64,000 nucleotides of DNA from an uncultured Gemmatimonadales bacterium. GTDB lineage: Bacteria; Gemmatimonadota; Gemmatimonadetes; Gemmatimonadales; GWC2-71-9. The stretch spans positions 253,514-317,513 of the forward strand of contig OY970263.1 of assembly GCA_963715665.1 (NCBI GenBank), in the 5' to 3' direction. Position 1 is the first letter of the stretch. Every line of letters starts with the position of its first letter. The translations under genes and the position numbers were made by a program. This document shows, piece by piece, positions 17,127 to 47,129 of the stretch. A model generated the notes under the pieces. That model was not told the origin of the DNA, did not search any database, and saw nothing but the letters and a program-made list of their open reading frames with translations.

Positions 17127-17128
17127 CG

Positions 17129-29284: not shown

Positions 29285-30817
29285 TTGCTCTCCCGCATCC
29301 ACTCCGCCACGGTGCTCGGCGTCGAGGCGCTCGCCGTCGACGTCGAGATCGACATTGCCAACGGCCTGCCGTCGTTCACCACGGTCGGGTTGCCGGTGGG
29401 CGCGGTCAAGGAAGGGCGGGAGCGTGTCGCGGCGGCGCTCCAGAACGCCGGCTTCCAGCTGCCGCTGCGGCGGATCACCGTGAACCTGGCGCCGGCCGAC
29501 GTGCAGAAGCGCGGCAGCGCGTTCGACCTGGCCGTCGCCGTGGGGATCCTCGCCGCGAGCGGCCAGATCTCCGACGACCGGCTGCATCGTTCGTTGCTGC
29601 TGGGCGAGCTGGGACTGGAAGGCGACCTGCGGCCGGTCCGCGGCGCGCTGCCGATTGCGCTGGCGGCGCGGGGGTTCGGGTGCGACGAGCTGATCCTGCC
29701 GCAGGCCAACGTGGCCGAAGCGGCGGTGGTGGGCGGGGTGTCGGTGCGCGGGGCGGCGAGCCTCACGGCGGTATGCCGGCACCTCACCGGTGAGGCGCCG
29801 CTGGCGGCGGTGCGCACCGACGCGGCGGCACTGATGGCGGAATTGCCGCAGAGCGATGTGGATTTTGCCGAGGTGAAGGCGCAGGGGGCGGCAAAACGGG
29901 CGATGGAGGTGGCGGCGGCGGGGGCGCACAACCTGTTGCTGATCGGTCCGCCCGGGGCGGGCAAGACGATGCTGGCGCGGCGGCTGCCGACGATCCTGCC
30001 GTCGATGTCGCTGGCCGAAGCGCTCGACGTGACGCGGATTCACAGTGTGGCGGGGTTGTTGCCGGCGGGGCAGGCGCTGGTGACGCGGCGTCCGTTCCGG
30101 GCGCCGCACCACACCGTCTCGTACGCCGGGCTGATCGGTGGTGGGGCGATTCCGCGGCCCGGTGAGGTGTCGCTGGCGCATCACGGGGTGCTCTTTCTCG
30201 ACGAAGTGGCCGAGCTGTCGAGCAACGTGCTGGAAGTACTGCGGCAACCGCTGGAGGACGGGCAGGTCACCATCTCGCGGGCGGCGATGACGCTGGCGTA
30301 TCCGGCGCGGTTCCTGCTGGTGGCGGCGATGAATCCCTGTCCCTGCGGCTACCTGGGTGACGCGACGCGGCAGTGCAGCTGTTCGCCGATGGCGGTGCAG
30401 CGGTACCGCGCGAAGATCTCCGGGCCGTTGCTCGACCGGGTGGACATCCACCTGAGTGTCCCGCCGGTGGCCTACGACGATCTCACCGCGCGCAAGGCAG
30501 CGGAATCGAGTACCGTGGTGCGCCAGCGGGTGGAAGCGGCGCGGGCGCGGCAGCTGGAGCGGTTCCGGGAGGTGCGCGGGGTGTATGCCAATGCCCACAT
30601 GGGACCGCGGGAGCTGGCGAAGTTCGTGCGGACCGACGCGGCGACGGATGCGGTACTGAAGCAGGCAATCGTCAAGCTGGGGCTTTCGGCGCGGGCGTAT
30701 CACCGCGTGCTCAAACTGGCGCGGACACTGGCGGATCTGGAGGGGGTGGAGGACGTGGGGCCGCAGCATGTGGGGGAGGCGATCCAGTATCGGGTGCTGG
30801 ACCGGGGGGAGGGGTGA
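29285..30817 (+). CDS. comM: YifB/ComM family Mg-chelatase-like ATPase (intact)
   Basis: 510 aa with GGAGG before the TTG start. Lon-like N-terminus, AAA+ core (LLIGPPGAGKTM, VLFLDE), the NPCPCGY motif and a C-terminal helical domain. Confidence 0.9.
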   Translation: MLSRIHSATVLGVEALAVDVEIDIANGLPSFTTVGLPVGAVKEGRERVAAALQNAGFQLPLRRITVNLAPADVQKRGSAFDLAVAVGILAASGQISDDRLHRSLLLGELGLEGDLRPVRGALPIALAARGFGCDELILPQANVAEAAVVGGVSVRGAASLTAVCRHLTGEAPLAAVRTDAAALMAELPQSDVDFAEVKAQGAAKRAMEVAAAGAHNLLLIGPPGAGKTMLARRLPTILPSMSLAEALDVTRIHSVAGLLPAGQALVTRRPFRAPHHTVSYAGLIGGGAIPRPGEVSLAHHGVLFLDEVAELSSNVLEVLRQPLEDGQVTISRAAMTLAYPARFLLVAAMNPCPCGYLGDATRQCSCSPMAVQRYRAKISGPLLDRVDIHLSVPPVAYDDLTARKAAESSTVVRQRVEAARARQLERFREVRGVYANAHMGPRELAKFVRTDAATDAVLKQAIVKLGLSARAYHRVLKLARTLADLEGVEDVGPQHVGEAIQYRVLDRGEG

Positions 30818-30916
30818 GGGCGGGGGCGGCACAGGGGCCACCGATCAACGCTTGACTGTCGGGCAACCTGGCTGCGAGGCCGGGTTGACACGGGTTGCAC
30901 CAGCCGGTACCGTTGA

Positions 30917-30946
30917 ACGCCACGCCACGCCACGCCACGCCACGCC
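30917..30946. repeat. pentanucleotide tandem repeat (ACGCC)x6
   Basis: Counted directly. The paralogous site at 47229-47273 has 9 units. Confidence 0.9.
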
Positions 30947-30957
30947 ATGGTGGTGTG

Positions 30958-31674
30958 ATGCGCTCGCCGGAGGTTGGTGGCCCTAAGTCGAGGCGTCGAC
31001 CGATGACTGTGTGCTGCCTGCTAACCGGCGAACCGACGGCGATTGACGCGGGGCCGCCTGCACCGCGCCCCCTGGGCACAGTGTTCGTGGTTCCGGGCGG
31101 CGATGATGATCTGGCGCGAGTCGCCGAGTCCGTCGACCAGTGGCGCGCCAGTCCGTGGTGCCCGACGGTGCTGGTCGGCGCCGATAACGTTACGCCTCGG
31201 ACGCTGGACCTGCTGGTTCCCTCTGCAATGCATGTAACCCCGCTTTGCGGTGAGGCCTTGCACCCGGTCGCCGAAATCAGGAACGGGATCGGTCAGCGCC
31301 GGATTCCCGACGCCACCGATGTTGCCGCCTACATCGCGTTCAGGACATCGCTCGGCCTCGCCAACCTGTACTGCGACATACGCGATTCGGCGGGCGACGC
31401 CGACTTTCTGCGCCGATCGCTCCGGAGGTACGGAGCATGGCTGCCCCACGATTGGCGGGCACTCGGGAGTTGCCTGGAGCTGGTCGCACGCGCGGTCGCG
31501 GCCGGGCATTCGGAGGCCATGGCGGCGGAGCTGGCGGGCGTGGACGTCAAGACGGTCTCGCGGTGGTGCCGTCGGTGCTTCGGGCTGACCTGGCGGGAGC
31601 TCGTGGGAATGGACGCCTGGGAGGCGGCGCTGGAGGCCGCTCTGCGGACGGGTGGATATGTAACAGACCGCTGA
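30958..31674 (+). CDS. island-borne HTH regulator (AraC-like C-terminal HTH), copy 1
   Basis: Near-identical paralogue of 47291..48007. The C-terminus (AAELAGVDVKTVSRWCRRCFGLTWRELV) is HTH-like. The start is uncertain: track TTG 30895 runs through the repeat, and ATG 30958 or 31003 are alternatives. Confidence 0.6.
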   Translation: MRSPEVGGPKSRRRPMTVCCLLTGEPTAIDAGPPAPRPLGTVFVVPGGDDDLARVAESVDQWRASPWCPTVLVGADNVTPRTLDLLVPSAMHVTPLCGEALHPVAEIRNGIGQRRIPDATDVAAYIAFRTSLGLANLYCDIRDSAGDADFLRRSLRRYGAWLPHDWRALGSCLELVARAVAAGHSEAMAAELAGVDVKTVSRWCRRCFGLTWRELVGMDAWEAALEAALRTGGYVTDR

Positions 31675-31872
31675 TCGGGGCGAAATTGGGCGAAAAACAG
31701 CGAAAGGCACTGCTTTCTGGTATGGCGGTTTCCGGGACGAAGGTGAGCATTGATGGGCGCGAGAACCGCCGAATCCCATCGCGTCGTCGAGACGTGGGAC
31801 TCAACGGTTCGGGTCTCTGAAACGGTTTGGAGCGGTTCACCGCCTCACGTTATAGGAACTGAGGGTAACACG

Positions 31873-32847
31873 ATGCCTATGCTCTTTCGGATGCCCCGAT
31901 GGATGCTTCTTGTATGCGTTCTCTCAGCAGTGGGCTGTCGGTCGGATACGATGGCTACAACGAGCGGCTATCAGGGCCAAACGGTAAGTGGAGCTAGTGG
32001 ACTATCGAAGAAGCAAATGATGACCGCGATCTTGACGCGGAGTCGTATCGCACGCGGAACGTTGCGACCGACTCAATCTGTGATTCGCACCTATGACAGG
32101 AACGGTGAGCCTCTGAGCGAGATAGTGGATTCGTCGGGCACATGGATTCGTCGAACACCATCGATCCCTGACTCGTTGATGCGCAAACCACTGTCCTCAT
32201 TTCTAAATGGGGAAACGCCCGCACCCGGTCCGAAGATGGCGTCGCTCATCGTGGGCGCCCCCGTTGGCACCTACTCGTTCAGTACGACACTCGGCGGTGA
32301 GCCGCTCAGCGTCACTGATTCGACGTGGACCGACACGCCGAGTGCGTGGGTGAATCCGACCCGAGACGCCTCGAATCCGTATGCGCCATTTGAGGGCGAT
32401 TTCTTCGCGGTCGACTCAAGCAATATCTACAACGTCCTTGCGGTTGGCAGCAATAGCGTCGACCTAGTCATGGTGTCGCCTGACAGTTCCGACGATGCTG
32501 GCGACTTCGTGGAGATTGATCCAGATGACAGCGCGATCGTGCAAGCTCAATCCGAGTTCACAACTGACACCGCCGAATCGGGCTATCTGCGCACCGGTGG
32601 AAGTTCTGCGGGGGCCTCTGGCACGGAGTTGGCGTCGCCAGGCGTGGTTGGTTTCCTGACACTCTGCCAGGGTGCCAGGATTACACTAGGGTTCGCAGCG
32701 GCGAAGACCGTGTTCTTTGGTGTGTTGGCGATCGCGTCGCTTGGAGATCAACCGGAATTCGCGGTTTGGGCTGGAAAGCAGGCGGTGCAGTCGCTGGCGC
32801 TAGCTGGAGCATCCTACTACACTGCGCACAAGAACGGGTGCTTATAG
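31873..32847 (+). CDS. hypothetical lipoprotein with hydrophobic C-terminal region
   Basis: GAGGG before ATG 31873 and a lipobox (LSAVGC). The last ~70 aa form two hydrophobic/Gly-Ala-rich segments. Lower-GC region. Confidence 0.6.
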   Translation: MPMLFRMPRWMLLVCVLSAVGCRSDTMATTSGYQGQTVSGASGLSKKQMMTAILTRSRIARGTLRPTQSVIRTYDRNGEPLSEIVDSSGTWIRRTPSIPDSLMRKPLSSFLNGETPAPGPKMASLIVGAPVGTYSFSTTLGGEPLSVTDSTWTDTPSAWVNPTRDASNPYAPFEGDFFAVDSSNIYNVLAVGSNSVDLVMVSPDSSDDAGDFVEIDPDDSAIVQAQSEFTTDTAESGYLRTGGSSAGASGTELASPGVVGFLTLCQGARITLGFAAAKTVFFGVLAIASLGDQPEFAVWAGKQAVQSLALAGASYYTAHKNGCL

Positions 32848-32937
32848 TTGCGCTGACAGCATGGGCCGAGCTCGGATTGGCGCACGTAGGCTGTCGGGCA
32901 CTTGAGAATTGCGACTCGTTGGCCGTTGAGGTGTTCG

Positions 32938-33252
32938 ATGAAGCAGAGTCCGCCGGATCTTATCATGGCCGCTGTCTTTCTCGGTTTGGCTGTCGTGTTC
33001 TGGCTCACCCGACCAGGAGCATTCCTCCGGAGGCAGTTGCCGAGCAGCCGATTGGGCACTTGGGCTACGATCGAGTCGTTGCTAAGCATCGGGCTATGTG
33101 TCGTTGCCTTCGTTGCATGGCTAGTTCCAGGGGGGTCGATAACGTGGACTCTTCGGGCTGCACCATTCGCGTGGTTCATCTTTGGCGGCGGGGGAGTTGC
33201 AAATGTCTGGGGAGGATGGTCAGTCTGGAACTCGCACAGACACCGTCGGTAG
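32938..33252 (+). CDS. small multi-TM membrane protein
   Basis: 104 aa with three to four hydrophobic helices and a basic tail. Its stop lay 4 nt before the next gene prior to IS insertion. Confidence 0.5.
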   Translation: MKQSPPDLIMAAVFLGLAVVFWLTRPGAFLRRQLPSSRLGTWATIESLLSIGLCVVAFVAWLVPGGSITWTLRAAPFAWFIFGGGGVANVWGGWSVWNSHRHRR

Positions 33253-33310
33253 CTGCATGATGAATCGCCCCGGGTTTGCCGGAGGCTCCAATCTGTGAGA
33301 GGTTGGAGGC

Positions 33311-33631
33311 ATGGACAAACGAACCCGATATTCGCCTGAAGTCCGGGAGCGCGCCACCCGCCTGGTCCTGGAGCAGCAAGCGGCCCACGGCTCGCAGTGG
33401 CAGGCCATTCGCTCCGTGGCCGACCAGATTGGCTGCACGCCGGAGTCGCTACGCCGCTGGGTGCGGCAAGCGGAAACCGACACCGGCCGCCGGGCCGGCC
33501 TGACGACGAGTGAGCAGCAGCGCGTGAAGGAACTGGTGCGGGAGAATCGCGGGCTGCGGCGCGCGAATGCAATCCTGCGCAAGGCGTCGGCGTATTTTGC
33601 GCAGGCGGAGCTCGACCGCCGCGGGACGTGA
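33311..33631 (+). CDS. IS3-family transposase OrfA (HTH)
   Basis: RYSPEVRERATRLVLE...LRRWVRQAE...leucine-zipper-like...KASAYFAQAE is typical of IS3 OrfA. Confidence 0.8.
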   Translation: MDKRTRYSPEVRERATRLVLEQQAAHGSQWQAIRSVADQIGCTPESLRRWVRQAETDTGRRAGLTTSEQQRVKELVRENRGLRRANAILRKASAYFAQAELDRRGT

Positions 33632-34536
33632 TGGTGGCGTTCCTCGACGCGCACCGTGCGACGTACGGAGTCGAGCCGATCTGAGCCCAGCTGCCGATCG
33701 CTCCGTCGACCTACTTCGAGCAGAAGGCGCGCGAGCGCGATCCGGCCCGGCTCCCCGCACGCACGCAGCACGATGCCGTGCTGATCCCAGCCATCACCCG
33801 GGTCTGGCAGCGCACGCGGCGACGCTACAGCGCGGACAAGGTGTGGAAGCCATTGAATCGGGAACAGATCCGGGTGGCGCACTGCATGGTCGAGCGCCTG
33901 ATGCAGGCGCACGGACTGCGGGGCGTGGTGCGCCGCAAACGCCGCTTCACCACGGTCCCCGATCTCCTAGCCGACCGGCCGGAGAACCTGGGGCAACGCA
34001 ACTTCACCGCCACGCGGCCCAACCAGCTGTGGGTCTCGGATCTGACCTACGTCGTGACGTGGCGGGACATGGTGTACGTGGCGCTTGTTACCGACGCCTT
34101 CTCGCGCCGCATCGTGGGCTGGCGGGCGAGCACGTCGCTGCGGACCGACCTGGCGCTCGACGCGCTGGAGCAGGCGCTGTACGATCGGGACACCGACGCC
34201 CCGCTCGTCCACCATAGCGACCGTGGATCGCAATAACTTGCCATCCGCTACACCGAACGCCTGCTTGCCGCGGGGATCGAGTCCTCGGTCGGCAGTCGCG
34301 GCGATGCGTACGACAATGCGTTGGCCGAAACGGTCAATGGGCTCTACAAGGCGGCAGTGATTCATCAACTCGGCCCGCGGAAGGGCTTGGAGGAGGTCGA
34401 GTACGCCACCCTCGAATGGGTGGCGTGGTACAATAGTGAGCGGCTGATGGAACCGCTGGGCTATCTCCCGCCGGCGGAATATGAGGAGCAGTTTCATCGG
34501 GCCCGGACCGACATCGCGGTCCCGGCACTCAACTAA
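33628..34536 (+). pseudogene. IS3-family transposase OrfB with two in-frame stops
   Basis: DDE-type OrfB (LWVSDLTYV...HHSDRGSQ*LAIRY...GDAYDNALAE), interrupted by TGA at 33682-33684 and TAA at 34234-34236 in the same frame. Confidence 0.8.
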
Positions 34537-34568
34537 CCGAGTCTCCGAGAAAGCCGGGGCGATTCATC

Positions 34569-35699
34569 ATGACTCTTCGGCGCCTGTTGGGAGTCGTGCT
34601 TTTCACCTGTGTGCGGGTATGGTCGCATCCTGGTCCTGTGTTTGGTCAGCAGGTATGGCGGCTGACGGAGGACCTGCGGATTGGTGGCGCTGATGCAGGC
34701 CCTGCCTCGTTCGCCGAGGTGGGCGATGTCGCGGTTGACGGGGCATCGGATATCTTTGTTCTGGACTATAAGGCTAGCGAGATTCGCGAATTCGATTCGG
34801 TCGGCCGCTTTGTACGCACGATTGGTCGCGTTGGTGCTGGCCCCGGCGAATACGGTCAGCGAGTCCATGGCATTCGTACCGCTCCCGACGGGCGGCTGTG
34901 GGTCAACGATGCGGAACACGGCCGTTTGGTGGTATTCGACTCGAACGGTTCGTTTTATCGACAGGTGTTGAGGCGCTACAACGGATTCAGTGCTGTATGG
35001 CATGCTCGATTTGACACGCTCGGTCGCCTCATGGAGGTTATCCCGTCGGTTGATTCCGCGGGATCTGCGGTACTGGCTGCCCTTCGATTGGACCCGAAGA
35101 CGTTAGCGTGGAGTGTACATGCGCTGCCGTGGTTCTCTGACTTCCAAGTGAGCTCGGATCGAAATCGCTGGCATTATCGCAATACTTCTGGGGGCGGTAC
35201 GATTGCAATACCGTTTGCACCTCAATCGTTGAGCGTCTTTGACCCGGCGGGGACTTGGTGGTGCAGCGCCGCGACATCATATCAGGTTCGGCTCGTTGAC
35301 ATAGACAATGGTGATGTCATCGCGAGCATTCGAAAGAAAGCTGCACGGTATGACATTGGACGGTCCGTGCGCGATTCCGCAATGACGGCGGTTGCGGCTA
35401 TCATGTCGTCGGTTCCCCGTGGTACGGTTGACTTGGATGCGATCCCGAAGACGTACCCGCCGGTCGGTGGGCTCGCCGTCGATGATAAACACGAGTTGTG
35501 GGTCACGTACGAAACGGAACGTGGTCCGAAGATCGATGTGTGGTCCCCGGACGGCACACGCATCGCGATGCTCAATGCACCGCCGGGGACTCTCGCCAAA
35601 TGGATCTTGGTGATTTCCCAAGGACGATACTACACGGTAGCGCTCGACCATGACGATGTGCCCTTCGTCGTTCGGTACCGGATTGACAGAGAGCACTGA
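34569..35699 (+). CDS. six-bladed beta-propeller family protein (GxGPGEF type), paralogue 1
   Basis: Signal peptide, repeated ...V.D..G.... strands and GRVGAGPGEY. Paralogous to 41161, 48946, 50883 and 52363. Its ATG is formed at the IS junction. Confidence 0.7.
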   Translation: MTLRRLLGVVLFTCVRVWSHPGPVFGQQVWRLTEDLRIGGADAGPASFAEVGDVAVDGASDIFVLDYKASEIREFDSVGRFVRTIGRVGAGPGEYGQRVHGIRTAPDGRLWVNDAEHGRLVVFDSNGSFYRQVLRRYNGFSAVWHARFDTLGRLMEVIPSVDSAGSAVLAALRLDPKTLAWSVHALPWFSDFQVSSDRNRWHYRNTSGGGTIAIPFAPQSLSVFDPAGTWWCSAATSYQVRLVDIDNGDVIASIRKKAARYDIGRSVRDSAMTAVAAIMSSVPRGTVDLDAIPKTYPPVGGLAVDDKHELWVTYETERGPKIDVWSPDGTRIAMLNAPPGTLAKWILVISQGRYYTVALDHDDVPFVVRYRIDREH

Positions 35700-35916: not shown

Positions 35917-36153
35917 CGCTCACCGGCCGCGCACAGGGTGCTAGTTCAGACGCCGATGACCGCAAAGTGACTGCCACGTCGGCGGTCTGACCGAGACTAG
36001 CCGCAGCGTCCGCCGGACCGCTTGCCCGACTCGCGCCGTGTCCCTTTATGTGTCTGCCTCGGCTCGCGCGCCGCTTGCACGGTCCAGTTCCGCCGAGGCA
36101 AGCCAGATCATCCAGGGACCAACCTTGGGCTTATCCGTGTCCGGGATAGGGCG
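35917..36153. repeat. conserved non-coding module downstream of the XRE gene (copy 1)
   Basis: Near-identical to 44247-44481. Contains a hairpin, GCCTCGGC...GCCGAGGC (36056-36099), and a longer imperfect palindrome, GCTAGTTCAGAC...GTCTGACCGAGACTAGC. Confidence 0.7.
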
Positions 36154-36402
36154 TCACCGGGCCACCGAGGGGACAGGCGGCGGTTCGCACCCCAGGAAGG
36201 CGGCGATTGCCGGGCGGGTCGCTGGCACCGGGTCCGTCTTGCCCAACTCCCAGTTCGTCACCGTGGCCGTGTCCACGCCGATCTGGGCCGCCACCTCTCG
36301 TTGCAATAGCTCAAGATCAATCCGCCGAGCCCTGATCTCGTCCCCTAAGTGTTTGATCTGCTTGGGGTAACCCGGCTTCGGGGTGGGTGCCGTCAGCCGC
36401 AA
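36154..36402 (-). CDS. XRE-family HTH protein, island-end copy 1
   Basis: 82 aa (LGDEIRARRIDLELLQREVAAQIGVDTATVTNWELG). The TTG start lies ~16 nt from the comM-fragment junction. Three paralogous copies are present. Confidence 0.7.
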   Translation of the reverse strand: MRLTAPTPKPGYPKQIKHLGDEIRARRIDLELLQREVAAQIGVDTATVTNWELGKTDPVPATRPAIAAFLGCEPPPVPSVAR

Positions 36403-36418
36403 CGGCAGTTTGGCAACA

Positions 36419-36904: not shown

Positions 36905-36952
36905 GGGCCGGGGGCGACATAGAGGCCACCGATCAACGCTTGACTGTCGGGC

Positions 36953-37657: not shown

Positions 37658-37668
37658 GTGAGGTCGTG

Positions 37669-39935: not shown

Positions 39936-40022
39936 GCAGGTGTCCACGAACTCGGGGTCAGCTCAGTTGCCCTATCGGCTGGCGTAGCACTGCTTGGTGC
40001 ACGCAACAAGCCAGCCTGGGCG

Positions 40023-40247: not shown

Positions 40248-40260
40248 ACTTCGATAGGGT

Positions 40261-40306
40261 CAGGAGTCGCGTCATGTCACGGTCAGTGTCGATGACGCGG
40301 CTCCTG
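40261..40306 (+). terminator. strong stem-loop after peptide gene 2
   Basis: CAGGAGTCGCGTCAT, a 16-nt loop, then ATGACGCGGCTCCTG (14 of 15 bp paired), 14 nt after the stop. Confidence 0.45.
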
Positions 40307-40387
40307 GCAGCTGCCCGAATGCACCCCTGAGCGCTCTGTCCCAGCGGATCTGGTAGCCGCCCCAGTTGATCTGGAGGTCCACGCCAC

Positions 40388-41065
40388 ATGAGAATTCAGA
40401 CGGCCATCGGTGAATGGGTGTCGAGGGGGTTCGTCCTGATTGCGGTCACATGCGCCGTCGTCTCGACGGTTGTGAGCCTCCGAGGGAGTGGATCGCACAG
40501 CATCAATCTTCGGGCTCCCAAGCCGAAGGTCGTCGCAGATTGGACCCAATATGAAACCGGGGGACACCGAATAGGCCCGCAAGCAGCCAAGCTGACGATT
40601 GTCGAGTTTGCTGATTTTGAGTGCCCTGTGTGCGGTCAATTTGAAAACCGAGTACTGCCGGGGTTGAGGCGAGAATTTCCGAACACAATATCGGTCGTAT
40701 TTCGCGAATGGCCGCTCGCCCAACACCACCTCGCGTATCCGGCCGCGCGCGCGGCTGAATGCGCGGGAGAGCAGGGTCGCTTCCAAGAGTATCACGATCT
40801 CCTGTACGCTAAGCAAGACTCCTTGGGCCTACTAAGCTTCGTGGACTTTGCCATCGAAGCCGGTATCCCCGATACGGCGCGATTTGCGGCTTGCAATGCA
40901 CGCCCCGGTGCTGTTAGTGCAATCGATGCCGATGTCGCCGCAGCAAGGCGTCTTGGCGGCCGCGGCACGCCGACGCTGATCGTAAACGGGCTGTTGCTTC
41001 TTGGACTGCCCGACAGCGCGGATCTTCATGATATAGTCGCGGCTCAACTGAAGAAGGCCGGCTGA
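40388..41065 (+). CDS. membrane-anchored DsbA-family thiol:disulfide oxidoreductase, paralogue 2
   Basis: GGAGG upstream, a TM helix and FADFECPVC. Collinear with 1086..1769. Confidence 0.8.
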   Translation: MRIQTAIGEWVSRGFVLIAVTCAVVSTVVSLRGSGSHSINLRAPKPKVVADWTQYETGGHRIGPQAAKLTIVEFADFECPVCGQFENRVLPGLRREFPNTISVVFREWPLAQHHLAYPAARAAECAGEQGRFQEYHDLLYAKQDSLGLLSFVDFAIEAGIPDTARFAACNARPGAVSAIDADVAAARRLGGRGTPTLIVNGLLLLGLPDSADLHDIVAAQLKKAG

Positions 41066-41160
41066 GCGAACACCTTTCAGAGGTCTTGCGTGTTGCGATT
41101 CGACGAAACCTCAGTATTCTTTGTCGCTGGAATTAGACGAAGTCTACCACTGAGGGACCG

Positions 41161-42336
41161 ATGATCGGTGTGCGGGCCACAGTTGCACTTATTGGACTGC
41201 CCTCTGTGGTGCCCATGCATGGTATTGCGCAGGTCGAGCGGCACTTTGCGCTTGTCCCCGTTCTCACCATCGATAGCCCCGTGGTTGACTCTGCCATCGC
41301 GGGAGGCGTCTTCCAATCCAATGGGCAAGTTGTCCTCTTTCAGCCGCAACGTGACCGCATCATCGTTTTTGACGCCTCAGGTCATCAACTGGCGGAAACG
41401 CCGGGTCGAGGCGAAGGGAAGGGTGAGTTCATACGACTCAGCGCGGGTGGTCCCGCACCCGACGGCTTCTGGGCTTATGATGCGCTTCGAACCAGAGTCA
41501 CGCTCTTTAGGCTCAATGGATCGGTGGTTCGAAGCGTTTCGGTGCCGACCTTTAAGGCCGCGCCTTCGGGGTCGGACGCATCATTCGACATCCCAAACGG
41601 ACCATTCACATACGTCTCGGCGATTCCGTGGACGGGCGAATACCTTGTGAGCAGCGTGGTTGGGCCCGAGGCCTCGGTCCCGCGGACGTGGCGGCGCCCA
41701 GCAGGTGCCGTTCAAATCCTGGTAAATGCGTCTTCCGGTGGGATGATTCGGAACGTGGTCGCCTGGACACCGTTCGTCCGGTGCGACACGACGGTGAACG
41801 TCGCAAATGATGAGCCGATCCACACACGGATGCCATTTTGTGTACAACCCATCAGGGCCGTTGGCCCCGAAGGTCACGTTACCGCAATAGTTCAGGCAAT
41901 AATGACCGGAAGGGATAGCGTGGATTTCGTCACTACCTCGCTTGCGCCTCGCGGTGATACGGTTTTTGTGAGTCACGTTAGGGCTCGTGCCGTGCCGGTC
42001 ACGCCCCAGGCAAGAGATAGTGAAGTGACGCTGATGGGTCGAGGCAAGACTGCGGCGGAGATCGCAGCGCTTCGCCAATTGTGTCCCGCGTCGTATTCTG
42101 GACTGAAGTCGGTGGTGGTCGGCGCAGATGGTTCCGTGTGGATCGAGCAAGTAGCGGCGCGAGGCCGGCGAACATGGATTGTGCTCGACTCGAGCGGCGT
42201 CGAATGGGGACGGTCGACGCTCGCGAGAGAAATTCGGCCCAAATTTGTGGGGCTTGCGACGATGTGGGGTATTGAGGAGCACCTCAATGGCGGGAGTGTG
42301 CCAGTGCACTGGGTGATTCACCGTTCCGGGCAGTAG
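41161..42336 (+). CDS. six-bladed beta-propeller family protein, paralogue 2
   Basis: Signal-like N-terminus, IIVFDASGHQLAETPGRGEGKGEF and repeated blade-like segments. Confidence 0.65.
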   Translation: MIGVRATVALIGLPSVVPMHGIAQVERHFALVPVLTIDSPVVDSAIAGGVFQSNGQVVLFQPQRDRIIVFDASGHQLAETPGRGEGKGEFIRLSAGGPAPDGFWAYDALRTRVTLFRLNGSVVRSVSVPTFKAAPSGSDASFDIPNGPFTYVSAIPWTGEYLVSSVVGPEASVPRTWRRPAGAVQILVNASSGGMIRNVVAWTPFVRCDTTVNVANDEPIHTRMPFCVQPIRAVGPEGHVTAIVQAIMTGRDSVDFVTTSLAPRGDTVFVSHVRARAVPVTPQARDSEVTLMGRGKTAAEIAALRQLCPASYSGLKSVVVGADGSVWIEQVAARGRRTWIVLDSSGVEWGRSTLAREIRPKFVGLATMWGIEEHLNGGSVPVHWVIHRSGQ

Positions 42337-42340
42337 TCGT

Positions 42341-44185
42341 ATGCCTATCGGAGCGGCGCTGCTGTATATGGCACTGGCGCTACAGGCTGCGCCGGCCCGC
42401 GGTGGGCAACCCAATAATCCGGTGATTGACCCCCGCGGCGGTTGGTTCCGGCAGGTCAGTTGGTCGGGGCCGAGTCGCCGCGCTGCACCATCGTGTGTCG
42501 GCGGCGGAATCAATCAGCCGGACATCGATGGGATGGGTACCGACTCGCTCCTGACGCTCCAGAACGACGGTGCGACCAGCGCGGAACGCAGCGGAGCGTG
42601 GCGGGAATGGTTGCTGGTCGGTTGCGTTCGCCTCCGACTGGCGTTTCCGCTGGGTGGCGCGGTCAGGAACGCGGAGATCCTCATGCCCCGCGGAACGTCG
42701 TGGCAGACCGGCGCACGGCGGGCCTTTCTCAAGGCTGCCTTCGCTGCCCCGAGGGAGGTCGAGGCGTGGCGATCCCTCGCGTTCGCAACACTGCTCAGCG
42801 TACCAGGGGACGTACCTGTCGTCCCGCGGATGCTGCCAGATTGGAGTTCTCAGATTGTTGATTATCCGCAGACCGGCGGCCGTGTGAATCTTGAGCCGGA
42901 GACGACCGCGATCTATGGTGCGGTACGGGCGGGTGTTGTCGATCCGCTCGTATTCCGGGCGTGTCTCGTGGGGATGATCTTCGAGGGGAATCTCGGCGGC
43001 GCTCGCGATTGCGGGACGCGCGCGTTGCTCGCGGGCCAGGATTCCACCTGGCAGCTCCTGCGCCTGGCGTGGCTGTCGTACCACGAGTCGGATTCCGTTG
43101 GCGGCGATGCGGAACTTGCCGCCGCGGTGGCGGCGGCGCACGATTCCGCGAGCCGGACGCAGATCGGATGGCTCTGGGAACGAGAGCATGATCCACATGC
43201 GGCGTATTCGCCGTTTGATATTGCATTGAGCGTGCGGCCGAATCTGGGAGCGGCAGGAACGGAACTCCTGCAGAAGCGCGAGTGGCTTGCCCTTCCGGAT
43301 TCCGAGCTGACCAGATGGGTAATTGGCCAACTTGGCACCAGTGAGGGAAAGGCAACATGGAGCGATCCGCGCGCCGTCGGTCTGCATTTCTTCATGTCGT
43401 TGACACTCGGAGATGGCGGCGACTTCCGGCCATGTATCCCTGACCGTGACACGGTGGCGGTCTGTGTGAGACGCGGCAAAGCCCTTCCCCGTGACCTTGT
43501 TGCCGCCCGTTGGCGGGGCTGGGATCCGACCACCGAGGCCCCGATTTCGCTGGTTCGCTTTGTCAGGCCGTCGCAAGGCCGCGGTGAATCTGATAGCATC
43601 GAGGTTCGCCAGTGGAATGGTCCTGGCGATTCCTTGCTGGATACGATTGTGGTCTCGTCATTCGCCGCCGGGCATGACGCGGCGAGCGGGAATGATCTGA
43701 TCGTGCGCCGTCTGCCGAACGAACGCCATTGGAGTGTCGTGTTGGCGCCAACGGCGTCAACTGACGCACCGATGACATTCCAGGAGAGCCAGGACGCGCT
43801 CGGTACGTCCGGCGCCATCGCGTTGTCGGATGTTGCGATCGGCCCGGCATCTGCTGTGGCACCGTCCAGCGCGGTTTGCGGTGAGACGTTCGTTGTAAGG
43901 CCGCGGATTGACCGGAACGCTGGCGCGACGGTGTGCTATCAGGTCCGCAGCAGACAAGTGCCGATCGCGATCGCAATTACTGAGACGGTGATGGCGACGA
44001 CGGGTGGGTCGCATCCGTCGGTCGCGATCAGGACGTCACGCACGCTTGGTGCGACGACAACGACCGTTGCAACAGCTGTCGATTTGCGACACTTGCGTCC
44101 GGGCTCATATCGGCTCGTCATCGAGATCGGCGAGGACCCGAAGTCTCCGGGAGCGCGGGCGATTACCAAGTTCGAATTGTACTGA
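42341..44185 (+). CDS. hypothetical secreted protein (614 aa), no recognised domain
   Basis: Starts 5 nt after the propeller stop and has a signal-like N-terminus. I recognised no family motif. Confidence 0.5.
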   Translation: MPIGAALLYMALALQAAPARGGQPNNPVIDPRGGWFRQVSWSGPSRRAAPSCVGGGINQPDIDGMGTDSLLTLQNDGATSAERSGAWREWLLVGCVRLRLAFPLGGAVRNAEILMPRGTSWQTGARRAFLKAAFAAPREVEAWRSLAFATLLSVPGDVPVVPRMLPDWSSQIVDYPQTGGRVNLEPETTAIYGAVRAGVVDPLVFRACLVGMIFEGNLGGARDCGTRALLAGQDSTWQLLRLAWLSYHESDSVGGDAELAAAVAAAHDSASRTQIGWLWEREHDPHAAYSPFDIALSVRPNLGAAGTELLQKREWLALPDSELTRWVIGQLGTSEGKATWSDPRAVGLHFFMSLTLGDGGDFRPCIPDRDTVAVCVRRGKALPRDLVAARWRGWDPTTEAPISLVRFVRPSQGRGESDSIEVRQWNGPGDSLLDTIVVSSFAAGHDAASGNDLIVRRLPNERHWSVVLAPTASTDAPMTFQESQDALGTSGAIALSDVAIGPASAVAPSSAVCGETFVVRPRIDRNAGATVCYQVRSRQVPIAIAITETVMATTGGSHPSVAIRTSRTLGATTTTVATAVDLRHLRPGSYRLVIEIGEDPKSPGARAITKFELY

Positions 44186-44246: not shown

Positions 44247-44481
44247 CGCTCACTGGCCGCGCACAGGGTGCTAGTTCAGACGCCGATGACCGCAAAGTGA
44301 CTGCCACGTCGGCGGTCTGACCGAGACTAGCCGCAGCGTCCGCCGGACTGCTTGCCCGACTCGCGCCGTGTCCCTTTATCTGTCTGCCTCGGCTCGCGCG
44401 CCGCTTGCACGGTCCAGGTCCGCCGAGGCAAGCCAGATCATCCAGGGACCATCTCGGGCTCATCGAGCTCAGGATAGGGCG
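44247..44481. repeat. conserved non-coding module downstream of the XRE gene (copy 2)
   Basis: Near-identical to 35917-36153. Confidence 0.7.
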
Positions 44482-44730
44482 TCACCTGGCCACCTGGGGG
44501 GCAGGTGGCGGGTCGCAGCGCAGGAAGGCGAAGATCGCCTGGCGGGTTGCTGTCGCCGGGACCGTATTGCCCAACTCCCAGTTCCTTATGGTCGCCTTGT
44601 CCACGCCCATCTGGACCGCCACCTCTCGTTGCAGCAGCCCAAGGTCGATCCGCCGCGCTCTGATCTGGTCCCCTAAGTGCTTGATCTGCTTGGGGTAACC
44701 CGGCTTCGGGGTCGGTGCCGTCAGCCGCAA
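44482..44730 (-). CDS. XRE-family HTH protein, island-end copy 2
   Basis: 82 aa, a paralogue of 36154..36402 with scattered substitutions. Confidence 0.7.
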   Translation of the reverse strand: MRLTAPTPKPGYPKQIKHLGDQIRARRIDLGLLQREVAVQMGVDKATIRNWELGNTVPATATRQAIFAFLRCDPPPAPQVAR

Positions 44731-44746
44731 CGGTAGTTTGGCAACA

Positions 44747-44796
44747 AATCCCTGTCCCTGCGGCTACCTCGGCGACGCGACGCGGCAGTGCAGCTG
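44747..44796 (+). repeat. 50-nt comM core fragment (att-like)
   Basis: AATCCCTGTCCCTGCGGCTACCTCGGCGACGCGACGCGGCAGTGCAGCTG matches comM 30332-30381 with 2 mismatches, after which homology stops. Confidence 0.8.
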
Positions 44797-44947
44797 CGAT
44801 TGGCTGTCCCTGGTCGGCGAGACTATTCTTACCCAGGCGTACTAGCTCGCCAATGGCGTGGAACTGCAATTCCGGTAAGGATGGTCGTCCTGGGAGAGGC
44901 TGTTGAGTAGGCCACAGCGTGCTGGGCATACCAATAGAGTAGTTGGG

Positions 44948-46060
44948 ATGGTGACAGCTGCGTTTTCAACGGCAGCAGTTGGGCTTCTCGTTTGGGTGTC
45001 CGGTTGTAGCCATTCGGCGCCATTTGTCACCGGCAACTATTTGACCGACAGCGTTCGCGTCTCCGGCCCCTTCGCCCTCTTGACCGACGACAAGGGAACA
45101 TCGGACCCGGCATGGAACGCGGACGGTCAGGGGTTCCTGTATCATTTCCTGATCCGGCCGCCGCTCATCAACGATGTCAAGATCGCAATCCAATTCGGCA
45201 CCAGAGTCCAGCTCGTGCTGAAGGACAGCATGGATGTCTGTGTCGGGATGTTTCCCGCCACTGGCGGCAATCGGCACTGGACGCTGTGCGACACCCGCGA
45301 TCTGCAGTGGGATTCTGTCAACGTGTTCGGCACCACAGCGATCGCACCCAATGGCAGGTTGCTCTACCAAGAAGCGGTCGGGCGTACCGATTATCCGCTG
45401 CCGGTCGACTACCACGTCGACTTTTGGCTGGCGGACACGTCGCGTCCGTTCACGCGTCGGCGCTTGTTGGCGCTGTATACCGACTCGTCCGGCATTCCGA
45501 GGTCGCCCCCGACCACCGTCAACTGGGTAGAGCAGGCGCAGTGGCTCGGAGCAGACTCGTTTCTGGTGATCGGACGGCACATCCTTCCCGACAGTGCCTT
45601 GACGACTCTTGGACTGGGAGTCGGCAGGATCACGGACGCCGGCGCCGACCTGCAGCTGATTCCCGGAACTGCGGCGATACAGCGTTACGCCATCGCGCCG
45701 GGCGGGAGGGCGGCAATCTTCACCGACGGCACGTTGCAGGTCTGGCGAGCGGCATTCGATGGCGGGATGCCGGTCCCCTTCGTCACCATCCCCGCCATGG
45801 CCCACCGATCGATTCTCGATATCGCATGCACGGGCAATGGATGCCGGCTGCTCGTGCAGGAGACGGTGGATACCGTGGAGGGGCGCAATGCGCTGCAGGT
45901 CGCACGCTCCTGGATCTGGTCGGTGTCGGCGGACGGGAGTGCGTTGCAGCAGCTGATGGAGTTGCCCGGCGGGCCACGCCTGGATCAGGCGGCGCTCGCC
46001 CCGGTGGCGAACAGCGTGGTTGGTCGTGCCAACGGCGAGCTGTATCTCATCCGGCCGTAA
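44948..46060 (+). CDS. lipoprotein with TolB/PD40-like beta-propeller repeats
   Basis: Lipobox (LVWVSGC) and PD40-like repeats (APNGRLLYQE, IAPGGRAAIF, SADGSALQQL). A different family from the GxGPGEF propellers. Confidence 0.55.
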   Translation: MVTAAFSTAAVGLLVWVSGCSHSAPFVTGNYLTDSVRVSGPFALLTDDKGTSDPAWNADGQGFLYHFLIRPPLINDVKIAIQFGTRVQLVLKDSMDVCVGMFPATGGNRHWTLCDTRDLQWDSVNVFGTTAIAPNGRLLYQEAVGRTDYPLPVDYHVDFWLADTSRPFTRRRLLALYTDSSGIPRSPPTTVNWVEQAQWLGADSFLVIGRHILPDSALTTLGLGVGRITDAGADLQLIPGTAAIQRYAIAPGGRAAIFTDGTLQVWRAAFDGGMPVPFVTIPAMAHRSILDIACTGNGCRLLVQETVDTVEGRNALQVARSWIWSVSADGSALQQLMELPGGPRLDQAALAPVANSVVGRANGELYLIRP

Positions 46061-46069
46061 ACGCACAGG

Positions 46070-46627
46070 TCAGGTGCCGGACTCGGCCTCGGTTACCGGG
46101 CGTGTCCCGGAATGGGGCTTTCGCCAGTCTTGACGATCTGACGGGGCACGGAATGTCGACTGGATGTGTCGGCGCGTCCCGATCGTCCATCCGCCTGCAC
46201 CGAAGGCACCGGGACGCGAAGAGACCTTGGGCGGAAGGATCGATGAGCGGGCTGATCTTTGGCGCGACCACAGCTGTCTCGGGACGGTCCCTCGCGTCCG
46301 GTGCCTCTCCCACGGGTTGAGCGGTTGACCCTTCAGGGTCAAGGACCACCCTTGGATAGCCGGAGCCCGGCGTACGGCCTCACTGGGCGTCGCGGGGGCG
46401 GGGAACGGGTCGTACCCCAGGAACGCGACGATCGCGGGATAGGCGGCCGTCATCGGGGTCGTGTGGCCCAACTCCCAGTTCGTCACCGTGGCCGTGTCCA
46501 CGCCGATCTGGGCCGCCACCTCTCGTTGCAGTAGCTCAAGATCAATCCGCCGAGCCCTGATCTCGTCCCCTAAGTGTTTGATCTGCTTGGGGTAACCCGG
46601 CTTCGGGGTGGGTGCCGTCAGCCGCAA
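46070..46627 (-). CDS. XRE-family HTH protein, island-end copy 3 (C-terminally extended ORF)
   Basis: The first ~75 aa are near-identical to copy 1. The remaining ~100 aa are not conserved and may be read-through of a lost stop. Confidence 0.55.
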   Translation of the reverse strand: MRLTAPTPKPGYPKQIKHLGDEIRARRIDLELLQREVAAQIGVDTATVTNWELGHTTPMTAAYPAIVAFLGYDPFPAPATPSEAVRRAPAIQGWSLTLKGQPLNPWERHRTRGTVPRQLWSRQRSARSSILPPKVSSRPGAFGAGGWTIGTRRHIQSTFRAPSDRQDWRKPHSGTRPVTEAESGT

Positions 46628-46643
46628 CGGCAGTTTGGCAACA

Positions 46644-47129
46644 AATCCCTGTCCCTGCGGCTACCTGGGTGACGCGACGCGGCAGTGCAGCTGTTCGCCG
46701 ATGGCGGTGCAGCGGTACCGCGCGAAGATCTCCGGGCCGTTGCTCGACCGGGTGGACATCCACCTGAGTGTCCCGCCGGTGGCCTACGACGATCTCACCG
46801 CGCGCAAGGCAGCGGAATCGAGTACCGTGGTGCGGCAGCGGGTGGAGGCGGCGCGGGCGCGGCAGCTGGAGCGGTTCCGGGAGGTGCGCGGGGTGTATGC
46901 CAATGCACACATGGGACCCAGGGAGTTGGCCAGGTTCGTGCGGACCGATGCCGCGACCGATGCGGTGCTGAAGCAGGCGATCGTCAAGCTGGGGCTGTCG
47001 GCGCGCGCGTATCACCGCGTGCTCAAACTGGCGCGGACGCTGGCGGATCTGGAGGGGGCGGCCGAGGTGGGGCCGCAGCATGTGGGGGAGGCGATCCAGT
47101 ACCGGGTGCTGGATCGGGGGGAGGGGTGA
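46644..47129 (+). pseudogene. comM: comM 3' fragment (copy 2)
   Basis: Matches comM 30332-30817. Homology continues downstream through the VNTR and the regulator to about 48060. Confidence 0.9.

What the first reader, a model, noticed from the sequence alone, without database searches (positions are those of the whole stretch)
30332..47129. comM 3' end present 3 times plus a 50-nt core: tandem island accretion at a site inside comM with no recognisable recombinase
The last 486 nt of comM, starting at AATCCCTGTCCCTGCGG (codons NPCPCGYLGDATRQCSC), occur within the intact gene (30332-30817) and again at 36419-36904 and 46644-47129. These copies differ by only a few amino-acid changes over ~160 codons. 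A 50-nt core with the same start occurs at 44747-44796. Every extra copy is immediately preceded by a paralogous XRE gene on the minus strand, whose TTG start lies ~16 nt from the junction. After copies 0 and 2, homology continues for ~0.9 kb through a VNTR and an HTH regulator (30818-31733 vs 47130-48060). The intervening segments have lower GC and carry cargo plus two IS elements. This is the classic footprint of elements that integrate into the 3' part of a gene and bring a replacement 3' end. comM is an established hot spot for Tn7-like AbaR islands in Acinetobacter. Here I could not recognise any TnsABC-like, tyrosine or serine recombinase among the ORFs, so the mobilising function is either outside the window, lost, or of an unfamiliar type.
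Basis: partly seen in the sequence, partly recalled or inferred. Interest (0 to 1): 0.8.

Follow-up and report, generated by a model that had tools for sequence, protein, structure and literature searches.

The report
Decayed serine-recombinase island stack in comM
Three cargo segments have piled up inside the competence gene comM of a soil Gemmatimonadales bacterium, each leaving a spare copy of the gene's last 486 bases. Related sequences indicate the joints are scars of a familiar mobile-element enzyme, a large serine recombinase, which is absent from this window, so this is an unusual variant of a known kind of island stack.

Summary
comM (29285-30817) is intact, and its last 486 nt recur at 36419 and 46644 (95-96% identical). 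A 50-nt stub lies at 44747. Each extra copy is preceded by an XRE gene on the minus strand. The copies differ almost only synonymously (dN/dS 0.04-0.09). The cargo between them is unrelated, and the same XRE|comM' joint occurs in many diverged metagenome contigs. So this is accretion, not in-situ duplication.

No recombinase lies in the window apart from two IS3 copies. Related loci point to one. In L098 and L101, comM is cut at the same TG (first Cys codon of NPCPCG) and joined to the 3' end of a large serine recombinase (LSR) gene. The LSR-side arm in L098 is a 15/17 inverted copy of the XRE-side arm. In L092 the LSR gene and XRE are adjacent. The window's joints therefore read as LSR attR sites.

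comM is already known as a major LSR target. The three XRE copies here are pseudogenes, so the stack is a decaying, recombinase-less remnant. It resembles ccr-less SCC cassettes or the module-less Dehalococcoides ssrA islands.

How an LSR with a 2-bp crossover yields gene-restoring 486-nt repeats is unresolved.

The parts
29285..30817 (+). Intact comM (510 aa: ChlI, Mg_chelatase, Mg_chelatase_C). The 5' 1047 nt are native; the 3' 486 nt are repeat copy R0.
   Evidence: Pfam. Upstream synteny with L001 and L093.
30338..30339 (+). Inferred crossover dinucleotide TG, in the first Cys codon of NPCPCG. Here it sits in an attB-type (uninterrupted) joint. The equivalent TGs are at 36425-36426, 44753-44754 and 46650-46651.
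   Evidence: Comparison of attB, attL (L098, L101), attR and the L092 joint.
30332..30864 (+). Repeat copy R0: comM 3' end plus 47 nt of G-rich tail. It is a mosaic. Nt 1-191 are identical to R2; nt 192-486 differ from R2 by 7.5%.
30865..31763 (+). Downstream flank shared with the region after R2. It holds the (ACGCC)6 VNTR at 30917-30947 and the HTH regulator regA ORF at 30895-31674. Homology to 47177-48095 ends at 31763.
31750..35699 (+). Cargo of segment E1: a 365-aa unknown secreted or lipoprotein-like ORF (31750-32847), a fragmented IS3 (33256-34571) and a 6-bladed NHL/propeller protein (34569-35699).
35962..36420 (-). XRE1 pseudogene. The 82-aa ORF is 36154-36402. The ancestral two-HTH gene continues in frame past an internal stop down to about 35989.
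36403..36426 (+). attR-type joint 1: P arm GGCAGTTTGGCAAC (36404-36417), a 7-nt spacer, then TG.
36419..36952 (+). Repeat copy R1: 5'-truncated comM 3' end plus 47-nt tail.
36953..44185 (+). Cargo of segment E2: AraC-type regulator (36953-37657), XRE-type 152 aa (37872-38330), intact IS3 (38717-39965), DsbA-like thioredoxin (40388-41065), propeller-like 391 aa (41161-42336) and an unknown 614 aa (42341-44185).
44313..44748 (-). XRE2 pseudogene. The 82-aa ORF is 44482-44730. The second HTH half is present but frame-shifted.
44732..44796 (+). attR-type joint 2: P arm GGTAGTTTGGCAAC plus a 50-nt stub of the comM 3' end (44747-44796, 48/50). The rest is deleted.
44797..46393 (+). Cargo of segment E3: one secreted propeller-like ORF (44903-46060).
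46340..46645 (-). XRE3 pseudogene. Homology to two-HTH XREs stops at about residue 102, and the ORF runs on into unrelated sequence.
46629..46651 (+). attR-type joint 3: P arm GGCAGTTTGGCAAC, a 7-nt spacer, then TG.
46644..48095 (+). Repeat copy R2, the last copy: either the native comM 3' end or the start of an oldest, open-ended unit. It is followed by the (ACGCC)10 VNTR (47229-47278) and regA' (47207-48007).

Best explanation
What it is. The window holds an intact comM followed by three stacked island segments that carry no recombinase: E1 (30332-36418), E2 (36419-44746) and E3 (44747-46643). Each segment ends in an XRE gene. The start of that gene lies in a conserved arm (GGCAGnnnGGCAAC). 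Seven nt beyond the arm, at the TG of the first Cys codon of ComM's NPCPCG motif, it is joined to a 5'-truncated comM copy.

How the family works. These joints are attR sites (P arm-TG-B') of a widespread family of elements mobilised by a large serine recombinase (LSR).
- attB is the comM sequence coding AAMNPCPCG.
- attP is a pair of 17-nt inverted arms, each 7 nt from the central TG.
- The XRE start lies in one arm and the LSR gene's 3' end in the other.

State of this window. There is no LSR, no attL scar and no P' arm, and all three XRE genes are pseudogenes. The segments are therefore decaying passengers. They are comparable to CIMEs, ccr-less SCC cassettes or module-less ssrA islands. 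The recombinase acted in trans or was lost.

What is shown and what is inferred. Shown: the joints, their conservation across lineages, the LSR at the complementary joint in relatives, and the symmetry of the arms. Inferred: that the same LSR family made these particular joints, and how the units were stacked while keeping comM whole. Candidate routes are a relaxed, Ccr-like use of attR- and attB-type sites in trans, or replacement of the LSR end by an intact comM allele through homologous or illegitimate recombination. After stacking, the array was reshaped by homologous exchange inside the repeats, IS3 insertion and deletion.
For: 1. The joint is a family trait.
- XRE homologs abut a comM fragment that starts at the same residue in L083-L086, L088, L091 (twice), L094-L096, L097 and the P0060 contig.
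- Identities are only 40-60% (ComM) and 52-66% (XRE).
- Several of these loci are arrays.

2. The complementary joint exists.
- In L098 native comM (residues 1-346) ends ...AAC CCA TG and continues into ACATTGT-GTTGCCTATCTGCCATC, the 3' end of a 454-aa LSR gene.
- In L101 another comM ends ...AAC CCC TGT, joined to the 3' end of a 59%-identical LSR gene.

3. The arms are symmetric.
- The reverse complement of the L098 P' arm is GATGGCAGATAGGCAAC.
- The P arms at attR joints read GATGGCAGAATGGCAAC.
- That is 15/17 identical, with both arms 7 nt from TG. A relaxed arm pattern was found only twice in the 21-kb L098 locus, once exactly at the joint.

4. In L092 an LSR homolog and an XRE homolog are adjacent on one strand, with the P arm between them. 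The context includes a type IV coupling protein, as in conjugative elements.

5. In L081, L093, L097b and L092, similarity to comM stops right after the first Cys codon. This matches a crossover core of a few nt at most, as in the serine type.

6. The LSR is a bona fide large serine recombinase.
- It has Resolvase and Recombinase domains and aligns over its full length to phage integrases.
- Its best curated matches are CcrB, CcrC and XisF.

7. Literature.
- The Mg-chelatase/ATP-dependent protease gene is targeted by 12.4% of predicted site-specific LSRs (PMC10083194).
- yifB is reported as an integration site for serine recombinases (PMC11551731).

8. Accretion rather than duplication.
- comM' dN/dS is 0.04-0.09 in the window.
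- In L091 adjacent comM' copies differ at dS 0.67 and XRE copies at pS 0.69, too far apart for homologous stacking.

9. Decay in the window.
- XRE1 has an in-frame stop, XRE2 a frameshift and XRE3 a truncation.
- XRE dN/dS is 0.4-0.7.
Against: 1. An LSR crossover at 2 bp neither duplicates 486 nt nor restores the gene. The two LSR-bearing relatives seen (L098, L101) break comM, and their P' arm is unlike comM. No unit was found that carries both an LSR and a comM' copy.

2. The link between the XRE end and the LSR end rests on arm symmetry across different contigs plus one adjacency (L092). In L092 the LSR is frame-shifted and the outer P' arm is missing. I could not read the far ends of the L098 and L101 elements.

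3. Canonical LSRs do not recombine attR with attB. Stacking of attR-type units therefore needs either relaxed site choice or another process.

4. In the window there are signs of homologous exchange.
- R0 is identical to R2 for 191 nt, then 7.5% different (P about 2e-5 if differences were uniform).
- E1's left end shares 1.43 kb with the region after R2.

5. Only the window is available, so an LSR elsewhere in this genome can be neither shown nor excluded.
Confidence: 0.65

Rival explanations
1. Stacking by homologous recombination. One or a few old LSR events created XRE|comM' joints. The recombinase-less units then spread and piled up by RecA-type exchange. Routes include Campbell insertion of circles carrying a comM 3' fragment, unequal crossing-over between repeat copies, or allelic transfer by natural transformation. 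No site-specific enzyme would be needed for the accretion seen in this window.
For: - R0 is a mosaic: 0 differences from R2 in nt 1-191 and 22 in nt 192-486.
- All three copies are identical over the first 96 nt.
- E1's left end carries not only comM' but 0.9 kb of the same downstream DNA (VNTR plus regA) as follows R2, at 94% identity. This looks like captured chromosomal flank.
- The copies are 95-96% identical, close enough for RecA.
- Campbell insertion through a 3'-terminal gene fragment would leave one intact gene plus one 5'-truncated copy, as observed.
Against: - In other arrays of the family, adjacent units are far too diverged for homologous exchange. L091 comM' copies are 78.6% identical (dS 0.67) and XRE pS is 0.69-0.76.
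- The left boundary of every copy is exact to the base in lineages only 40-60% identical.
- Gene conversion after site-specific stacking would give the same mosaic.
Confidence: 0.3
2. Classic tyrosine-integrase islands. Each carries a replacement comM 3' end in its attP. The integrase gene lies outside the window or has been deleted.
For: Long direct repeats that restore the target gene's 3' end are typical of tyrosine-integrase elements such as icd, tRNA and tmRNA islands (established knowledge). The window shows exactly that footprint.
Against: - No tyrosine recombinase was seen in the window.
- None was seen in the gene tables of the roughly 15 related contexts.
- Joints that lack comM' share only the TGY codon with comM.
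- The complementary joint in relatives carries an LSR.
- The arms form a 17-nt inverted pair around a 16-nt spacer, which is LSR-like anatomy.
Confidence: 0.07
3. In-situ tandem segmental duplication of a comM-3'...XRE block, followed by divergence and cargo replacement. No mobile element would be involved.
For: A tandem duplication starting inside comM and ending after XRE would create the same XRE|comM' joints (inference).
Against: - Unit interiors share no detectable similarity, while the ends are 91-96% identical.
- comM' copies show dN/dS of 0.04-0.09. They diverged as working gene ends, not as redundant fragments.
- The same joint occurs in other phylum-level lineages.
- Relatives L001 and L093 lack this arrangement.
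Confidence: 0.03
4. An unfamiliar mobilising function is carried by the units themselves. Examples would be the two-HTH XRE protein recruiting a host recombinase (as the TLC phage XafT factor recruits Xer) or acting with an unknown partner.
For: - XRE is the only gene shared by all units.
- In other arrays it is intact and under purifying selection.
- Its start codon lies in or across the crossover arm.
- It gives a weak, sub-threshold hit to the VC1465 Xer-activation-factor family.
Against: - The XRE has only HTH domains and no catalytic motif.
- The core does not look like a dif site (comparison by eye, from memory).
- The LSR explanation accounts for the arms and for the complementary joint.
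Confidence: 0.05

Closest known systems
Large-serine-recombinase elements that integrate into comM/yifB (the Mg-chelatase-like competence helicase gene)
   Same: - The target gene is the same. Durrant et al. 2022 (PMC10083194) report it as the target of 12.4% of predicted site-specific LSRs. PMC11551731 cites it as a site for serine recombinases.
- Relatives L098 and L101 show an LSR gene whose 3' end abuts comM cut at the first Cys codon of NPCPCG.
   Different: - Those elements interrupt comM and share only a short core with it.
- Here comM is intact and each unit starts with a 486-nt comM 3' copy.
- The units in the window have no LSR.
Dehalococcoides ssrA genomic islands (CcrB-like integrase DsiB)
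   Same: All points from PMC3146451:
- Serine-recombinase islands stacked in tandem downstream of a single-copy conserved gene.
- Each island is bounded by a repeat of the gene's 3' end.
- The integrase gene's 3' end overlaps attL.
- Only 16 of the 31 islands carry the integration module; the authors suggest the others may be cis-mobilizable or fixed.
   Different: - The repeat there is 20 bp, because the site is at the very end of ssrA. Here the site is 480 nt from the stop, so the repeat is 486 nt of coding sequence.
- The integration modules differ. There is no XRE boundary gene in that system.
SCCmec and ccr-less (pseudo-)SCC cassettes at rlmH in staphylococci
   Same: - LSR-driven (CcrAB/C) cassettes that keep the target gene intact and accrete in tandem.
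- They include units without recombinase that are mobilised in trans (established knowledge; PMC11470126 title and abstract).
- The LSR here scores best against CcrB and CcrC among curated families, below their cut-offs.
   Different: - Different phylum, target gene and att sequence.
- SCC repeats are about 15-20 bp.
- Relaxed site choice is documented for Ccr but untested here.
ICE/CIME accretion (Streptococcus thermophilus ICESt1/ICESt3 at the fda 3' end)
   Same: Concept of recombinase-less, att-flanked passengers stacked beside an integrative conjugative element (established knowledge). LSR homologs L092 and L099 lie in contexts with type IV coupling proteins.
   Different: That system uses a tyrosine integrase, and no conjugation genes lie in this window.
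Tn7-like AbaR/Tn6022 islands in Acinetobacter comM
   Same: Only the target gene.
   Different: - Those islands move by TnsABC(D)-type transposition with 5-bp target duplications, and comM is inactivated (established knowledge).
- No Tns genes were found here.
- The joints here are recombinase att sites, and comM stays intact.

Membership tests
LSR-mobilised integrative element | The element encodes a large serine recombinase (Resolvase + Recombinase + zinc-ribbon/coiled-coil domains) | tested here: not met
   No such gene or remnant lies in the 64-kb window (Pfam; tblastn). It is present in related elements L098, L101, L092 and L099.
LSR-mobilised integrative element | attP and attB share only a short central core, and attP has about 50 bp of imperfect dyad symmetry | tested here: met
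   attP was reconstructed from attR joints plus the L098 attL. It has 17-nt inverted arms (15/17 identical), each 7 nt from a central TG. Joints without comM' share only TGY with comM.
LSR-mobilised integrative element | Integration gives one attL (target 5' part | element) and one attR (element | target 3' part) | tested here: inconclusive
   The window has three attR-type joints and no attL. attL-type joints were seen only in L098 and L101. Both ends of one element were never seen together.
LSR-mobilised integrative element | Recombinase-dependent integration and excision | not testable with these tools
   This needs read-level junction evidence or an assay.
Recombinase-less passenger islands (CIME / pseudo-SCC type) | Flanked by att sites of a recombinase-encoding relative but lacking the recombinase | tested here: met
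   Each unit is bounded by P-arm/TG joints of the family and carries no recombinase. The cargo is unrelated between units.
Recombinase-less passenger islands (CIME / pseudo-SCC type) | Mobilisable in trans by the relative's recombinase | not testable with these tools
   The XRE genes in the window are pseudogenes, which argues the units here are now fixed. In other arrays XRE is intact and constrained.
Tyrosine-integrase island with replacement 3' end | Tyrosine integrase gene next to an att site | tested here: not met
   None in the window, and none in any related context listed.
Tyrosine-integrase island with replacement 3' end | Direct repeat of the target gene's 3' part at the far end of the element | tested here: met
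   486-nt repeats.
Tn7-like AbaR islands at comM | TnsA/B/C(/D) genes, Tn7-type ends and a 5-bp target duplication | tested here: not met
   No Tns or other DDE genes were found apart from the two IS3 copies. The boundaries are 486-nt repeats and att arms.

The most novel reading that the evidence does not exclude
The XRE-comM' units could be a dedicated class of LSR satellites rather than debris. Their attR-type site (P arm-TG-comM 3' end) would recombine with a resident master element's attL, or directly with attB through a Ccr-like relaxed LSR. The effect would be that the passenger repairs the comM gene that the master broke. The two-HTH XRE would act as the state-sensing directionality factor, because its start codon or promoter lies across the crossover. 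That would be a gene-restoring hitch-hiker strategy not described for serine recombinases. It would explain why complete units in soil metagenome contigs attributed to several phyla lack a recombinase yet keep XRE under selection.
Probability: 0.15. Interest if true: 0.75.

Novelty: new variant of a known kind. Interest (0 to 1): 0.42.

Why it matters
comM is the commonest landing site of large serine recombinases, and such insertions normally switch off a competence helicase. This window and its relatives show a lineage of islands at that site that leave comM whole. Each unit carries a full 486-nt replacement end, and many units lack a recombinase. Their cargo includes secreted propeller and DsbA-like proteins here, and TIR, PLD and GmrSD-type genes elsewhere.

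If the units are still mobile in trans, they extend the SCC and ssrA-island style of accretion to uncultured soil phyla. They would also pose a concrete mechanistic question: how does a 2-bp-crossover enzyme produce gene-restoring repeats?

The reconstructed attP/attB pair and the very conserved LSR family (65-78% identical among proteins that sources label as from several phyla) could also serve as an integration tool.

If the units are only fossils, the locus is an ordinary island graveyard.

Tried and rejected
- **Recombinase in the window.** Pfam on about 60 called ORFs across the window, including alternative frames of the IS segments, found only two IS3 transposases. tblastn with four LSRs found nothing.
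- **tRNA or structured RNA at the site.** There are no tRNAs. The only Rfam hit is the IS3 ALIL pseudoknot.
- **A hidden recombinase among large unannotated proteins next to XRE.** Candidates were window u614, L091 674 aa, L093 638 aa and L094 564 aa. They are not homologous to each other, and NCBIfam and PADLOC give nothing.
- **Exact-protein look-ups of the window's ComM and XRE.** Not on record.
- **XRE family in viral contigs and plasmids.** No match.
- **LSR family in plasmids and phages.** Only 25-37% identical integrases.
- **A fourth unit ending downstream of R2.** There is no XRE, comM' or arm remnant in 48-58 kb.
- **Tn7/AbaR reading.** Rejected: no Tns genes and different joints.
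- **In-situ duplication.** Rejected on dN/dS, unrelated cargo and cross-lineage recurrence.
- **regA as a small serine recombinase.** Its C-terminal HTH suggested this, but it has no Resolvase domain.
- **Mageeney et al. 2020.** Could not be read; the paper is not held.

Full report
**1. Observation**

A self-BLASTN of the window and the repeat finder confirm the finding almost to the base.
- comM (29285-30817, 510 aa, ChlI/Mg_chelatase/Mg_chelatase_C domains) is intact.
- Its last 486 nt plus 47 nt of G-rich tail (30332-30864) recur at 36419-36952 (95.1%) and 46644-47176.
- A 50-nt stub (48/50) lies at 44747-44796.
- After copies R0 and R2, homology runs on to 31763 and 48095 (93.8% over 1454 columns). 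It passes through an (ACGCC)n VNTR (6 vs 10 copies) and an HTH regulator gene.
- All four copies start at the same base.
- Each extra copy is preceded by an XRE (HTH_3) ORF on the minus strand, 16 nt from the joint.
- The stretches between copies have GC of 0.57-0.65, against about 0.70 for the flanks.
- The cargo consists of 6-bladed propeller proteins, DsbA-like thioredoxins, regulators and proteins of unknown function.
- There are two IS3 elements. One is fragmented (33256-34571, with an ALIL pseudoknot) and one is intact (38717-39965).
- The segment 44797-46393 is not an IS.
- No recombinase other than IS3 is encoded among the called ORFs across the 64 kb.

**2. Duplication or accretion?**

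The organism is a Gemmatimonadales bacterium.
- The nearest species representative (L001, ComM 80% identical) shares the upstream genes. It has no XRE, no second comM 3' copy and none of the cargo within 10 kb.
- The nearest metagenome relative (L093, ComM N-part 83% identical, same upstream synteny) has a different single unit after comM: IS3, a thioredoxin-domain protein and XRE.

Inside the window:
- The three comM' copies differ almost only at synonymous sites (dN/dS 0.04-0.09). They diverged as working gene ends in separate lineages.
- The unit interiors share no similarity.

In-situ duplication is therefore rejected.

**3. The joint is a family trait**

A scan of metagenome contigs with the XRE protein found homologs that abut a comM fragment beginning at the same residue. 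ComM identity is only 42-60% (L083-L086).

A profile search found at least 1847 two-HTH XRE relatives. Context look-ups showed more cases, several of them arrays:
- L091: comM'-XRE, 8.7 kb of peptidase cargo, comM'-XRE, then GmrSD and a methylase.
- L097: cargo of TIR and PLD genes.
- L094-L096: three assemblies.
- The P0060 contig.

Complete units there also lack any recombinase domain. Nothing but XRE and comM' is shared between units.

In those arrays XRE is full length and constrained (pS 0.69-0.76, pN 0.26-0.31). Adjacent comM' copies differ at dS 0.67. That is far too diverged for stacking by homologous recombination.

**4. Finding the recombinase**

On the XRE strand every joint carries GTTGCC-N3/4-(C/T)TG(C/T)C. 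This motif overlaps the conserved XRE N-terminus (P-A-L-P-F-C-H, TTG start), about 8 nt from the comM codons.

In four joints that lack comM' (L081, L093, L097b, L092), similarity to comM stops right after the first Cys codon.

In L092 the other side of that point is the 3' end of a large serine recombinase gene. That gene is frame-shifted in the assembly.

Homologs of this LSR form a very conserved family, with 1370 proteins at E of 1e-20 or better. The best 120 listed hits are 65-78% identical and are labelled by their sources as coming from several phyla. Contexts of two full-length members give the complementary joint:
- **L098.** Native comM (residues 1-346, next to secA and release-factor (RF-1 domain) genes) ends ...GCC GCA ATG AAC CCA TG. 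It continues as ACATTGT GTTGCCTATCTGCCATC ATTTCGG, which is the LSR's 3' end.
- **L101.** Another comM ends ...ATG AAC CCC TGT, joined to the 3' end of a 59%-identical LSR gene.

The L098 LSR-side arm is a 15/17 inverted copy of the XRE-side arm GATGGCAGAATGGCAAC. Both arms lie 7 nt from TG. A relaxed arm pattern was found only twice in the 21-kb L098 locus, once exactly at that joint.

This reconstructs a typical LSR attP: about 50 bp, dyad-symmetric, with a non-palindromic central dinucleotide. It identifies the window's XRE|comM' joints as attR.

The window's own arms read GGCAGTTTGGCAAC (36404, 46629) and GGTAGTTTGGCAAC (44732).

Three further points fit:
- The LSR aligns over its full length to phage integrases. 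It scores best against CcrB, CcrC and XisF, below the curated cut-offs.
- L092 and L099 lie in contexts with type IV coupling proteins.
- In the literature, the Mg-chelatase/ATP-dependent protease gene is the target of 12.4% of predicted site-specific LSRs (PMC10083194), and yifB is cited as a serine-recombinase site (PMC11551731).

**5. State of the window's stack**

- There is no LSR remnant (best tblastn E = 0.35).
- There is no comM 5' fragment other than the real gene.
- There is no further XRE or comM' remnant downstream of R2.

So there are three attR-type joints and three units. R2 is either the native 3' end or the head of an older, open-ended unit.

All three XRE genes are pseudogenes of a two-HTH ancestor: an in-frame stop, a frameshift and a truncation. 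Their dN/dS is relaxed, at 0.4-0.7. E3 has lost all but 50 nt of its comM' copy.

The stack is therefore decaying, whatever built it.

**6. What remains unexplained**

An LSR exchanges strands at 2 bp. The LSR-bearing relatives break comM. Nothing in canonical LSR biology produces a 486-nt gene-restoring repeat or stacks attR-type units.

Two routes are compatible with the data.
- **(a) Relaxed, Ccr-like site choice.** The enzyme would act in trans on attR- and attB-type joints, or on the attL of a resident master. This is supported by the deep divergence of neighbouring units elsewhere and by the precedent of ccr-less SCC cassettes and module-less ssrA islands (PMC3146451).
- **(b) Homologous or homology-facilitated exchange with an intact comM allele.** This would remove the LSR end. 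It would be followed by Campbell-type or unequal exchange within the repeats.
  - In this window R0 is identical to R2 for 191 nt and then 7.5% different (P about 2e-5).
  - E1's left end carries 0.9 kb of the same downstream DNA as follows R2.

L098 adds a further hint. Its element carries a complete second comM directly upstream of the LSR. At least some family members therefore compensate for the gene they break.

I could not see both ends of any LSR-bearing element. The look-ups were exhausted.

**7. Verdict**

- The accretion reading is right.
- The Tn7 analogy and the 'unfamiliar recombinase' option are not supported.

The locus is best filed as a recombinase-less, decaying stack of islands of an LSR family that targets the NPC|PCG codon of comM. 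That is a known kind: LSR islands at comM, and SCC- or ssrA-GI-style accretion. The unusual variant features are full-length replacement 3' ends that keep comM intact, and an XRE boundary gene built into the att arm.

Interest is moderate. It would rise if the units prove to be active satellites that repair comM.

Noticed in passing
window 30917-30947 and 47229-47278: A pentanucleotide repeat (ACGCC)n sits at the 5' end of, or upstream of, the regA HTH regulator ORF. It has 6 copies in one paralog and 10 in the other. The unit is not a multiple of three, so it could work as a phase-variable switch for regA.
   Followed up: partly
window 28462-29181: A PIN-domain (VapC-like toxin) ORF with lower GC3 lies just upstream of comM. 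It fills a gap that is much shorter in the relative L001, so it looks like a small separate insertion.
   Followed up: partly
window 33256-34571 and 38717-39965: There are two IS3-family copies with clear terminal inverted repeats. The first is fragmented but keeps an ALIL frameshift pseudoknot (33589-33705, 94 bits). The second has intact orfA and orfB.
   Followed up: yes
window 14500-19700: Diverged direct repeats (families D3, D5 and D8, 60-80% identical) correspond to paralogous MacB/FtsX-type ABC permease genes in tandem. One of them (17473-17955) is truncated.
   Followed up: partly
L098 8277-11490: An LSR element inserted in comM carries a complete second comM gene (73% nt identity to the host's 5' part) directly upstream of its recombinase gene. 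This may be compensation for the gene it breaks. A 42-aa LSR N-terminal remnant also lies at 3939-4064.
   Followed up: partly
L091 10663-19096; L097 4430-7411: Cargo of sister arrays includes defence-type genes: GmrSD_N plus an N6/N4 methyltransferase, and SEFIR/TIR plus a PLD nuclease. The window's cargo has no defence hits.
   Followed up: no
L081, L082, L093 and window 36403-36420: In one XRE subfamily the start codon (TTG or GTG) lies across the crossover point. An in-frame start is therefore present only when the P arm is joined to certain partners, and not when it is joined to comM'. This could be a recombination-state switch.
   Followed up: partly
window 30332-30427, 36419-36514, 46644-46739: The first 96 nt of all three full repeat copies are identical. 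None of the 27 variable sites falls there. This suggests homogenisation near the crossover.
   Followed up: partly
window 1086-2540, 40388-41065, 50143-50886; 34569-35699, 41161-42336, 44903-46060, 48946-50124, 52363-53430: The locus and its surroundings are rich in DsbA-like thioredoxin proteins and secreted 6-bladed propeller-like proteins, both inside and outside the stacked units. The family looks polymorphic and its role is unknown.
   Followed up: no
L094, L095, L096: Three assemblies from different samples share the comM-distal unit. They differ on the comM-proximal side of the second XRE, with different IS and cargo content. This fits array turnover at the comM-proximal end.
   Followed up: no
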